Assembly: GCF_003334385.1 (NCBI RefSeq)
Contig: NZ_QOWN01000021.1
DNA from: Escherichia coli
Lineage (GTDB): Bacteria; Pseudomonadota; Gammaproteobacteria; Enterobacterales; Enterobacteriaceae
Strand: one strand, 5' to 3'
DNA: 64,000 nt
Shown here: positions 3,466-4,668 of the stretch, piece by piece
Position numbering within the stretch: position 1 is the stretch's first letter
Layout: each line of letters opens with the position of its first letter
The notes under the pieces: model-generated
What the model was told of the DNA's origin: nothing
The model's database searches: none
The model's input: the letters and a program-made list of their open reading frames with translations, nothing else
Position numbers and translations under genes: made by a program

Positions 3466-4668
3466 GTGACGGCGTTAAAAGTAGGAAGTGAGAGCTGGTG
3501 GCAGTCGAAACATGGCCCGGAATGGCAGCGTCTGAATGACGAAATGTTTGAGGTCACTTTCTGGTGGCGTGATCCCCAAGGTTCTGAAGAATACTCGACG
3601 ATAAAGCGCGTATGGGTCTACATCACTGGTGTGACCGATCACCATCAGAACAGCCAGCCCCAGTCGATGCAGCGAATTGCAGGCACTAACGTCTGGCAGT
3701 GGACGACACAACTCAATGCCAACTGGCGCGGCAGCTACTGCTTTATTCCCACCGAACGCGATGACATTTTTTCTGTACCATCCCCCGATCGCCTCGAATT
3801 GCGCGAAGGCTGGCGAAAACTATTACCCCAGGCGATAGCCGATCCGCTGAACCTACAAAGCTGGAAAGGCGGGCGAGGGCACGCTGTTTCTGCACTCGAA
3901 ATGCCGCAAGCGCCTCTGCAACCGGGATGGGATTGTCCGCAAGCGCCAGAAATACCTGCCAAAGAAATTATCTGGAAAAGTGAACGGTTGAAAAAGTCAC
4001 GGCGTGTATGGATTTTTACCACCGGCGATGCAACAGCAGAAGAACGCCCGCTGGCAGTTTTGCTCGATGGCGAATTTTGGGCGCAAAGTATGCCCGTCTG
4101 GCCAGTGCTGACTTCGCTGACCCATCGTCAGCAACTTCCTCCCGCCGTGTATGTGTTGATCGACGCTATCGACACCACGCACCGCGCCCACGAACTGCCG
4201 TGTAATGCGGATTTCTGGCTCGCAGTACAGCAAGAGTTATTACCCCTGGTGAAAGCTATTGCCCCTTTTAGCGATCGTGCCGATCGCACCGTGGTTGCCG
4301 GGCAGAGTTTTGGTGGGCTTTCCGCGCTGTATGCCGGACTGCACTGGCCTGAACGCTTTGGCTGTGTATTAAGCCAGTCAGGATCGTACTGGTGGCCGCA
4401 TCGGGGCGGGCAGCAAGAGGGCGTGTTACTTGAAAAGCTAAAAGCTGGTGAAGTTAGCGCCGAAGGTCTGCGCATTGTGCTGGAAGCGGGTATTCGCGAG
4501 CCGATGATCATGCGGGCCAATCAGGCGCTGTATGCGCAATTACACCCCATAAAAGAATCCATTTTCTGGCGTCAGGTTGACGGCGGACATGATGCGCTTT
4601 GTTGGCGCGGTGGCTTGATGCAGGGGCTAATCGACCTCTGGCAACCACTTTTCCATGACAGGAGTTGA
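3466..4668 (+). CDS. fes: Enterochelin (ferric enterobactin) esterase Fes
   Basis: Translation MTALKVGSESWWQSKHGPEWQ... with GQSFGG esterase motif; 400 aa from GTG at 3466, or 374 aa if ATG at 3544 is used. Confidence 0.9.
   Translation: MTALKVGSESWWQSKHGPEWQRLNDEMFEVTFWWRDPQGSEEYSTIKRVWVYITGVTDHHQNSQPQSMQRIAGTNVWQWTTQLNANWRGSYCFIPTERDDIFSVPSPDRLELREGWRKLLPQAIADPLNLQSWKGGRGHAVSALEMPQAPLQPGWDCPQAPEIPAKEIIWKSERLKKSRRVWIFTTGDATAEERPLAVLLDGEFWAQSMPVWPVLTSLTHRQQLPPAVYVLIDAIDTTHRAHELPCNADFWLAVQQELLPLVKAIAPFSDRADRTVVAGQSFGGLSALYAGLHWPERFGCVLSQSGSYWWPHRGGQQEGVLLEKLKAGEVSAEGLRIVLEAGIREPMIMRANQALYAQLHPIKESIFWRQVDGGHDALCWRGGLMQGLIDLWQPLFHDRS

What the first reader, a model, noticed from the sequence alone, without database searches (positions are those of the whole stretch)
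3466..3546. Alternative initiation codons for fes (GTG 3466 vs ATG 3544)
The fes frame opens at a GTG preceded by a G-rich stretch, giving a 400-aa product, whereas the first in-frame ATG is 26 codons downstream (374 aa). The choice changes the N-terminus of the esterase.
Basis: seen in the sequence. Interest (0 to 1): 0.2.

Follow-up and report, generated by a model that had tools for sequence, protein, structure and literature searches.

The report
fes start codon: GTG, settled
The E. coli enterobactin esterase gene fes starts at the GTG (400-residue protein), and the downstream ATG is an ordinary internal methionine that older annotations took for the start, so this is a known and already corrected annotation question.

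Summary
The window is E. coli K-12 fepA / fes-ybdZ-entF. GTG 3466 and ATG 3544 are in frame, 26 codons apart, giving 400 or 374 residues. An in-frame TAA at 3448 makes the GTG the only canonical start upstream of the ATG.

This is a historical annotation ambiguity, not a live alternative. The ATG was the start in NC_000913.2 and in some older GenBank records. RefSeq, UniProt FES_ECOLI and the crystal structures 2B20, 3C87 and 3MGA use the GTG form.

Comparative evidence is decisive:
- All 36 orthologous loci keep the frame open through a conserved GSxxWW motif (residues 7-12) with a start codon upstream.
- W11, W12 and P18 are invariant.
- The Met27 column is Met in only 4 of 36 loci.
- Codons 2-22 vary mostly at third positions.
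- AlphaFold2 models residues 9-22 with confidence as a helix plus a strand, and the crystal chains have too many ordered residues for the segment to be missing.

The ATG has no Shine-Dalgarno-like element. I found no direct ribosome-profiling or N-terminal peptide data.

One curiosity: the start sits in AUGGUGUGA, a start-stop overlap of the narQ type. It is already catalogued and is not conserved in sister Escherichia species. Interest is low.

The parts
3466..4668 (+). fes coding sequence, long form (400 aa plus stop), enterochelin / ferric enterobactin esterase
   Evidence: ORF list and translation. The RefSeq fes CDS maps to exactly these coordinates. NCBIfam NF007758 scores 703 bits against a cutoff of 222 and covers residues 2-398. 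Pfam Enterochelin_N and Esterase both match. The protein aligns over its full 400 residues to the Shigella Fes crystal-structure chain 2b20_A with a handful of substitutions (E 6e-279).
3466..3468 (+). GTG initiation codon of fes (best-supported start)
   Evidence: It is the only canonical start between the in-frame TAA at 3448 and the ATG at 3544. A GTG sits at the homologous position in 15 Escherichia, Citrobacter, Leclercia and Enterobacter loci. The 61 nt around it are identical in 5064 of 5410 complete E. coli genomes. It is the annotated start in RefSeq and in the reference genome used by PMC9841429.
3455..3459 (+). Weak Shine-Dalgarno-like element GGGGT, 6-7 nt upstream of the GTG
   Evidence: Duplex with the 16S 3' end is -5.9 kcal/mol with a 5-nt spacer, against -3.1 for the ATG. 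A purine-rich variant (GAGG, GGAG, AAGG, AGGG) sits at the same place in 17 enterobacterial sequences. PMC9841429 lists fes as having no SD motif of 4 nt or more.
3469..3543 (+). Codons 2-26, the N-terminal segment that exists only in the long form (TALKVGSESWWQSKHGPEWQRLNDE)
   Evidence: GSxxWW is conserved as far as Pseudomonas, Aeromonas and Iodobacter. W11, W12 and P18 are invariant and G7 nearly so. Variation is biased to third codon positions. dN/dS is 0.16-0.45 against Citrobacter. AlphaFold2 models helix 9-13 and strand 19-22 with pLDDT 82-94.
3544..3546 (+). ATG = Met27, an internal codon and the start codon of the superseded 374-aa annotation
   Evidence: NC_000913 position 612038 maps here. 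The Fur site at 611889 is given as -149 from fes. The 374-aa protein is present in older GenBank records. Met occupies this column in only 4 of 36 orthologous loci. It is Asn in Salmonella Fes and AAT in Escherichia sp. MOD1-EC7003.
3448..3450 (+). In-frame TAA that closes the fes frame upstream
3461..3469 (+). AUG-GUG-UGA two-codon mini-frame overlapping the fes GTG (GUGUGA start-stop context with A at position +4)
   Evidence: Read directly from the sequence. fes is listed among the gtGTG-starting genes in Table 3 of PMC9841429. The UGA is absent in E. whittamii, E. albertii and the divergent E. coli SCPM-O-B-8794. In Citrobacter one extra base puts the ATG in frame.
3374..3421 (.). Fur-protected operator and overlapping divergent fepA/fes promoters, which place the fes transcription start upstream of the GTG
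   Evidence: The Fur footprint is given as NC_000913 611868-611915 (PMC2189734), converted with window = genome - 608494. The two transcription starts are 19 bp apart according to PMC4469952, citing Pettis 1988. A minus-strand promoter-like site lies at 3432-3403. The fes -35/-10 pair (TTGCAA 3381-3386, TAATAT 3404-3409) was read by eye and is an inference.
983..3223 (-). fepA, the divergent neighbour (annotated ATG at 3223)
   Evidence: RefSeq annotation mapped onto the window and the ORF list.

Best explanation
fes is translated from the GTG at 3466, giving the 400-residue enterobactin esterase. The fes-ybdZ-entF transcript starts in the Fur-controlled divergent promoter about 50 nt upstream. 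A 30S subunit is positioned by a weak SD-like GGGGU 6-7 nt upstream and initiates with fMet at the GTG.

Residues 2-26 are an integral, conserved part of the N-terminal domain: a short helix containing the invariant Trp-Trp pair, then the first beta-strand. The ATG at 3544 simply encodes Met27, the first residue of the next strand. The 374-aa product is an artefact of early ATG-preferring annotation.

Shown here: the reading frame, conservation, coding-type substitution pattern, structural order and current curation. Inferred: the exact transcription start, the role of GGGGU, and that no minor initiation occurs at Met27.
For: 1. The GTG is the only canonical start upstream of the ATG in the open frame.
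2. All 36 orthologous loci, from Escherichia to Pseudomonas, Aeromonas and Iodobacter, keep the frame open through the WW motif (residues 11-12) and have a canonical start upstream of it. 31 of 36 have no ATG at all between WW and the VTFWWRD strand. Met at the Met27 column occurs in only 4 of 36 (alignment).
3. W11, W12 and P18 are invariant and G7 nearly invariant in a 27-sequence alignment.
4. Mean column entropy by codon position is 0.50/0.40/0.79 in codons 2-22, against a flat 0.69/0.67/0.72 in the 5' UTR. dN/dS is 0.16-0.45 against Citrobacter.
5. Of the 99 full-length representatives among the best 150 hits from 50%-identity clusters, 94 have at least 20 residues N-terminal to the Met27 equivalent, and 46 align back to query residue 10 or earlier.
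6. AlphaFold2 gives mean pLDDT 82/94/94 for residues 1-10, 11-20 and 21-30, with helix 9-13 and strands 19-22 and 27-35.
7. The crystal constructs of Shigella and Salmonella Fes carry the long N-terminus. Their chains have 388-397 ordered residues out of 403-407, which is impossible if the first 26 residues were disordered.
8. The SD-like duplex is -5.9 kcal/mol at the GTG and -3.1 at the ATG.
9. RefSeq/PGAP, UniProt FES_ECOLI, NCBIfam NF007758 and the reference annotation used in PMC9841429 all use the GTG form.
Against: I could not retrieve any direct experimental mapping of the Fes N-terminus: no ribosome-profiling start peak and no N-terminal peptide.

The SD-like element is weak and statistically unremarkable. 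PMC9841429 scores fes as having no SD.

Within Escherichia alone, the few variable sites in codons 2-26 show no third-position bias (5/5/6). The coding signal therefore rests on comparisons between genera.

The Pfam Enterochelin_N model begins only at residue 29.

The 374-aa form was the accepted annotation for years.
Confidence: 0.93

Rival explanations
1. Dual initiation. Most ribosomes start at GTG 3466, but some start at ATG 3544, giving a second 374-residue isoform that lacks the first helix and strand.
For: In-frame internal starts near the 5' end are documented for other E. coli genes (bioRxiv 10.1101/520783). AUG is intrinsically a better start codon than GUG. The ATG is preceded by an A-rich GACGAA, and predicted accessibility is similar at the two sites (0.36 against 0.31). 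No data that I could find exclude it.
Against: There is no SD-like element at the ATG (-3.1 kcal/mol, below the background mean). The ATG is absent from Escherichia sp. MOD1-EC7003, E. albertii, Salmonella and all Citrobacter loci, and from 32 of 36 orthologues overall. Any isoform would therefore be lineage-specific. It would also lack the invariant W11, W12 and P18 and a confidently modelled strand of the N-terminal domain, so it would probably fold poorly.
Confidence: 0.05
2. The old annotation is right: translation starts only at ATG 3544 (374 aa), and 3466-3543 is untranslated leader.
For: This was the start in NC_000913.2 and in GenBank records such as ACB01707.1. The Pfam N-terminal domain model begins at residue 29.
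Against: An untranslated leader would not keep an open frame, an invariant WW/P motif and a third-position-biased substitution pattern across genera that lack the ATG altogether. The segment is ordered in the solved structures and confidently modelled. Curated resources have since moved to the GTG.
Confidence: 0.01
3. The GTG is the productive start, but it is reached partly indirectly. Ribosomes first engage AUG 3461 or GUG 3464, which share a frame. They terminate at once at UGA 3467-3469 and reinitiate on the overlapping GUG 3466. This is a start-stop termination-reinitiation site that throttles fes translation, as shown for narQ.
For: The sequence AUGGUGUGA is present. fes is catalogued among the 12 gtGTG-starting genes. 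For GUGUGA reporters and for narQ, expression from the 3' GUG depended on A at +4 and on RF2. The weak, poorly positioned SD would favour ambiguity. The context is identical in more than 93% of E. coli genomes.
Against: This has not been tested for fes, and the authors made no ambiguity prediction for it. The UGA is lost in E. whittamii, E. albertii and the divergent E. coli SCPM-O-B-8794, which have GTGGCG. Citrobacter has the ATG in frame, and Leclercia and Enterobacter have no ATG. The arrangement therefore looks like a by-product of a 1-nt indel rather than a conserved device. AUG 3461 is only 2 nt from the GGGG, too close for SD-guided initiation.
Confidence: 0.12

Closest known systems
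E. coli K-12 fes (b0585), UniProt P13039 FES_ECOLI, RefSeq WP_000125843.1; structures 2B20, 3C87, 3C8D and 3C8H (Shigella flexneri Fes) and 3MGA (Salmonella Fes)
   Same: The DNA is identical to K-12 BW25113 over 3200-3800. The exact 400-aa protein is the FES_ECOLI sequence. It aligns over its full length to the Shigella structure chain with a handful of substitutions (E 6e-279), with the same N-terminus MTALKVGSESWW.
   Different: Nothing in the sequence differs. The only difference is historical: older records (NC_000913.2, ACB01707.1 and others) start the same gene at Met27.
Start-site re-annotations of E. coli K-12 between U00096.2 (2006) and U00096.3 (2014), as discussed by Nakahigashi et al. 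2016 (PMC4909307)
   Same: It belongs to the same class of correction: an ATG-preferring early call replaced by an upstream start.
   Different: The fes shift is 78 nt, outside that study's 60-nt search range, and fes does not appear in its supplementary tables. I infer that the change belongs to this re-annotation round; I did not read that in a source.
GUGUGA start-stop / termination-reinitiation sites, narQ type (PMC9841429)
   Same: The annotated start is the 3' GUG of a GUGUG, followed by A, so the 5' GUG frame stops immediately at UGA. fes is in that paper's Table 3.
   Different: fes has an additional AUG one codon further upstream in the 5' GUG frame. It has no recognised SD. It was not tested, and the context is not conserved in sister species.
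In-frame internal initiation sites that give N-terminally truncated isoforms (Ribo-RET iTIS, bioRxiv 10.1101/520783)
   Same: Formally the layout is the same: an in-frame AUG near the 5' end of a gene.
   Different: There is no initiation signal, no SD and no conservation of the AUG, and the truncated product would lose conserved structural elements.

Membership tests
Enterochelin (ferric enterobactin) esterase Fes, NCBIfam NF007758 equivalog | Whole-protein score above the curated cutoff, with the match covering the full length including the N-terminus | tested here: met
   703.2 bits against a cutoff of 222. Residues 2-398 match profile positions 14-417 of 418.
Enterochelin (ferric enterobactin) esterase Fes, NCBIfam NF007758 equivalog | Two-domain architecture: Enterochelin_N (PF11806) followed by an alpha/beta-hydrolase esterase domain (PF00756) with the GxSxG nucleophile motif | tested here: met
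   PF11806 matches residues 29-155 (E 8e-41) and PF00756 matches 173-390 (E 5e-21). G279 Q280 S281 G283 G284, and H375 D376, are invariant in the alignment.
Enterochelin (ferric enterobactin) esterase Fes, NCBIfam NF007758 equivalog | Genomic context in the enterobactin cluster, divergent from fepA and upstream of ybdZ-entF, under a Fur operator | tested here: met
   RefSeq annotation of identical DNA. The Fur footprint maps to 3374-3421.
Enterochelin (ferric enterobactin) esterase Fes, NCBIfam NF007758 equivalog | Fold matches solved Fes structures, including the N-terminal segment | tested here: met
   The AlphaFold2 model against 3c87_A gives TM 0.88 over 393 aligned columns. The crystal chains have 388-397 ordered residues.
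Gene with two functional in-frame initiation codons (isoform-producing internal start) | The internal AUG is conserved in orthologues | tested here: not met
   Met occupies the column in 4 of 36 loci. It is absent in Salmonella, Citrobacter, E. albertii and Escherichia sp. MOD1-EC7003.
Gene with two functional in-frame initiation codons (isoform-producing internal start) | A ribosome-binding signal upstream of the internal AUG | tested here: not met
   The best anti-SD duplex is -3.1 kcal/mol with a 10-nt spacer, weaker than the background mean of -4.2.
Gene with two functional in-frame initiation codons (isoform-producing internal start) | Experimental initiation peak or a second N-terminus | not testable with these tools
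   No fes entry was found in the accessible start-site profiling or N-terminomics supplements. Peptide strings were not found in the literature.
GUGUGA start-stop termination-reinitiation site (narQ type, PMC9841429) | The annotated start is the 3' GUG of a GUGUG, and A at +4 creates a UGA in the 5' GUG frame | tested here: met
   3464-3469 is GTGTGA. fes is listed in Table 3.
GUGUGA start-stop termination-reinitiation site (narQ type, PMC9841429) | An SD whose spacing favours or permits the 5' GUG (aligned spacing about 14/16) | tested here: inconclusive
   There is only a weak GGGGU. The paper gives no SD and no prediction for fes.
GUGUGA start-stop termination-reinitiation site (narQ type, PMC9841429) | Dependence of expression on A4 and RF2 | not testable with these tools
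   This needs reporter or reconstituted-translation experiments (describe the assay).
GUGUGA start-stop termination-reinitiation site (narQ type, PMC9841429) | Conservation of the overlap in related species (my own added criterion for function) | tested here: not met
   E. whittamii, E. albertii and E. coli SCPM-O-B-8794 have GTGGCG. Citrobacter has ATG in frame. Leclercia and Enterobacter have no ATG.

The most novel reading that the evidence does not exclude
In E. coli proper, a 1-nt deletion relative to Citrobacter moved the ancestral in-frame ATG out of frame. That created AUG-GUG-UGA overlapping the fes GUG: three start codons within 8 nt, two of them in a two-codon frame that ends on the fes start. 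Under this reading the cluster acts as a start-stop / termination-reinitiation throttle of the narQ type. It would hold down translation of the first gene of the fes-ybdZ-entF operon independently of Fur.
Probability: 0.1. Interest if true: 0.3.

Novelty: already known. Interest (0 to 1): 0.08.

Why it matters
The practical value is small. It confirms that constructs, deletions and models of Fes should use the 400-residue form. Clone collections or strains designed on the 374-aa annotation would lack a conserved helix and strand of the N-terminal domain. The case also shows how ATG-preferring start calls are corrected by comparative data. No open question is advanced.

Tried and rejected
- **Primary papers on the fepA-fes control region.** Hunt 1994 (PMC205592) and Escolar 1998 (PMC107206) are not held, and Pettis 1988 is not in the library. 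The transcription start is therefore second-hand plus my own reading of the -35/-10 pair.
- **Start-site profiling and N-terminomics.** The TetRP supplements have no fes entry, and that study's search range was 60 nt against a 78-nt shift. No Ribo-RET supplements are held. The TRAINSPOTTER supplements have no fes entry. The eLife 2020 supplements are not held.
- **Full-text search for tryptic peptides of residues 1-26.** This found nothing. Searches on fes with 'start codon' or 'GTG' returned only irrelevant papers.
- **Promoter scan.** It reported only the minus-strand (fepA-side) site. The fes promoter falls below its 9-of-12 threshold.
- **Rfam.** There were no matches in 3150-3750 at E up to 1, so no known leader RNA element was found.
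- **Fur-box consensus search.** With up to 3 mismatches it did not hit the fepA-fes operator, only a site at 12931. The operator is more degenerate, so I relied on the published footprint.
- **Within-Escherichia codon-position counts.** There are too few substitutions (5/5/6) to be informative, so I used comparisons between genera instead.
- **The 12-codon frame from ATG 3453.** It has no SD (-0.8 kcal/mol), and the ATG is lost in E. albertii and one Enterobacter. I dismissed it.

Full report
**Identity of the locus.** Window 3200-3800 is 100% identical to E. coli K-12 BW25113 and matches 5415 of 5426 complete E. coli genomes. The features under the match are fepA and fes. RefSeq annotation of that identical DNA places fepA on the minus strand, ending at its ATG at window 3223. 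On the plus strand it places fes at 3466-4668, then ybdZ, then entF. The protein is an unambiguous Fes. NCBIfam NF007758 scores 703 bits against a cutoff of 222. Pfam finds Enterochelin_N plus Esterase. The protein aligns over its full 400 residues to the Shigella flexneri Fes crystal-structure chain with a handful of substitutions (E 6e-279).

**The observation.** GTG lies at 3466-3468 and ATG at 3544-3546, in frame and 26 codons apart, giving products of 400 and 374 residues. An in-frame TAA at 3448-3450 closes the frame five codons before the GTG. None of those five codons is a start, so the GTG is the only canonical start upstream of the ATG. The 'G-rich stretch' is GGGG at 3455-3458. A downstream in-frame Met is unremarkable in itself: with 7 internal Met in 399 codons, my arithmetic gives about 0.4 for one falling in the first 27 codons.

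**History of the ambiguity.** PMC2189734 gives a Fur site at NC_000913 position 611889 lying -172 from fepA and -149 from fes. That puts the fes start of that annotation at 612038. With fepA's start (611717) at window 3223, the offset is 608494, so 612038 is window 3544, the ATG. The older K-12 annotation therefore used the 374-aa form. An exact-sequence look-up finds both proteins in public collections. The 400-aa form is named FES_ECOLI and seen on at least 1000 contigs. The 374-aa form occurs in 36 contigs under older GenBank accessions such as ACB01707.1. Current RefSeq records use the GTG. A 2022 survey of the reference genome lists fes among genes whose annotated start is the 3' GTG of a GTGTG (PMC9841429). 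The crystal constructs of Shigella and Salmonella Fes carry the long N-terminus. The question has been asked and answered in curation.

I fetched 36 orthologous loci from species-representative genomes: Escherichia, Citrobacter, Leclercia, Kluyvera, Enterobacter, Erwinia, Mangrovibacter, Rahnella, Pseudomonas, Iodobacter, Aeromonas and a proteobacterial MAG.
- Translating each frame from its upstream stop and aligning shows homology running through the segment. A GSxxWW motif (E. coli residues 7-12) and G/xP at 17-18 are recognisable in all of them.
- In a 27-sequence full-length alignment, W11, W12 and P18 are invariant and G7 is nearly so.
- All 36 loci keep the frame open through WW and have a canonical start upstream of it. 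31 have no ATG between WW and the VTFWWRD strand. Met at the Met27 column occurs in only 4: three Escherichia and one distant MAG.
- Salmonella Fes has Asn at that column. Escherichia sp. MOD1-EC7003 has AAT and E. albertii has ACT.

**Substitution pattern.** Across 17 enterobacterial sequences, mean column entropy by codon position is 0.50/0.40/0.79 in codons 2-22. That is coding-like, and compares with 0.23/0.34/0.93 in codons 28-40. In the 5' UTR it is a flat 0.69/0.67/0.72. Pairwise dN/dS for codons 2-26 against Citrobacter is 0.16-0.45. This indicates purifying selection, though weaker than in codons 27-100, where it is about 0.1. Within Escherichia alone there are too few changes to tell.

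**Family-wide check.** An exhaustive phmmer search of 1.84 billion cluster representatives gave 218 hits at E up to 1e-30. Among the best 150, 99 are full-length. Of those, 46 align back to query residue 10 or earlier. 94 have at least 20 residues N-terminal to the Met27 equivalent. Only 3 have fewer than 10, plausibly short start calls of the same kind.

**Structure.** AlphaFold2 on the 27-sequence alignment (mean pLDDT 83.8) gives mean pLDDT 82, 94 and 94 for residues 1-10, 11-20 and 21-30. It models a helix at 9-13 (the WW motif), a strand at 19-22 and the next strand at 27-35. Met27 is therefore the first residue of the second strand, not a domain boundary. The model superposes on the solved Fes structures with TM 0.82-0.88. 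Those chains contain 388-397 ordered residues of 403-407. That count could not be reached if the first 26 residues were disordered; this last step is an inference from the residue counts. The Pfam Enterochelin_N model happens to start at residue 29, but the NCBIfam equivalog profile covers the segment.

**Initiation signals.** The best duplex of the 22 nt upstream with the 16S 3' end is -5.9 kcal/mol for the GTG (UGGGGU, 5-nt spacer) and -3.1 for the ATG. The window's background is -4.2 with sd 2.7, so the GTG signal is only modest. PMC9841429 counts fes as lacking an SD of 4 nt or more. A purine-rich variant (GAGG, GGAG, AAGG, AGGG) sits at the same place in all 17 aligned enterobacterial sequences, and a GTG lies at the homologous position in 15 loci. 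Within E. coli, the 61 nt around the GTG are identical in 5064 of 5410 genomes. The 61 nt around the ATG are more polymorphic: 4123 genomes are identical and about 570 have no 28-nt exact word. In the examples I read, those differences are synonymous third-position changes.

**Transcript.** The published Fur footprint maps to 3374-3421, and the fepA and fes transcription starts are reported to be 19 bp apart. The transcript therefore begins about 45-50 nt upstream of the GTG. The exact start was not verified here.

**Mechanism.** Fur-derepressed transcription from the divergent promoter gives an mRNA with a leader of about 50 nt. Initiation at GUG 3466 gives the 400-residue Fes, whose residues 2-26 form part of the N-terminal domain. 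I put this at 0.93. Exclusive ATG initiation is effectively excluded by conservation (0.01). A minor 374-aa isoform cannot be excluded without experiments. It has no signal and no conservation, and it would lack invariant residues (0.05).

**A side observation.** The start lies in ATG GTG TGA (3461-3469), with the fes GTG at 3466-3468. AUG 3461 and GUG 3464 share a frame that stops at UGA 3467-3469, overlapping the fes start, and the base after the start is A. For GUGUGA reporters and for narQ, PMC9841429 showed that expression from the 3' GUG depends on that A and on RF2. This is consistent with start-stop termination-reinitiation and with competition that lowers output. fes is in that paper's list but was not tested, and no prediction was given for it.

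The DNA alignment shows how the context arose. Citrobacter has one more base (ATG GCG GTG ACG), so its ATG is in frame. Escherichia lacks that base. Leclercia and Enterobacter have no ATG. E. whittamii, E. albertii and the divergent E. coli SCPM-O-B-8794 have GTGGCG, with no UGA. The overlap is therefore confined to E. coli proper and looks incidental. I give a functional role about 0.1.

**What was not found.** I found no direct ribosome-profiling or N-terminal peptide evidence for either start. There is no Rfam element in the leader.

**Verdict.** The evidence supports a single start at the GTG. The matter is already settled in current databases and structures, so novelty is 'already known' and interest is low.

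Noticed in passing
window 3461-3469: The fes start lies in AUG-GUG-UGA. Three canonical start codons fall within 8 nt, and two of them are in a two-codon frame whose UGA overlaps the fes GUG (a GUGUGA start-stop with A at +4, as in narQ). 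fes is listed but untested in PMC9841429.
   Followed up: partly
window 3460-3468 compared with L008-L012 and L039 (around position 1495-1503 of each locus): Escherichia lacks one base that Citrobacter has between the ATG and the GTG (ATGGT-GTG against ATGGCGGTG). The likely start therefore changes from an in-frame ATG in Citrobacter to the GTG in Escherichia, shortening the N-terminus by two residues.
   Followed up: partly
window 3228-3428, minus strand (L002 1529-1729): Some RefSeq E. coli genomes carry a PGAP 'hypothetical protein' of 66 aa (WP_001174912.1) inside the fepA-fes intergenic region, across the Fur operator. The K-12 window has no ORF of 50 aa or more there. It looks like an over-call.
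   Followed up: no
window 3223-3283, minus strand: The fepA frame also opens upstream of its annotated start. A GTG at 3283 would add 20 codons to the annotated ATG at 3223, which has an AGGA-type SD at 3230-3235. It is the same kind of start ambiguity as in fes.
   Followed up: no
window 3453-3491: A 12-codon frame runs from ATG 3453 (MGLWCDGVKSRK) and overlaps the fes start out of frame. It has no SD (-0.8 kcal/mol), and the ATG is lost in E. albertii and one Enterobacter.
   Followed up: partly
window 12931-12949: This is the only match in the window to the 19-bp Fur-box consensus with up to 3 mismatches (GATAATGAAATTAATTATC). It presumably belongs to another divergent enterobactin promoter such as fepB-entC. 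I did not examine it.
   Followed up: no
window 3515-3575: About 570 complete E. coli genomes have no 28-nt exact word in this 61-nt stretch, against only a handful for 3437-3497. In the sequences I read, the differences are synonymous third-position changes (CAG to CAA, GAG to GAA, TTC to TTT).
   Followed up: partly
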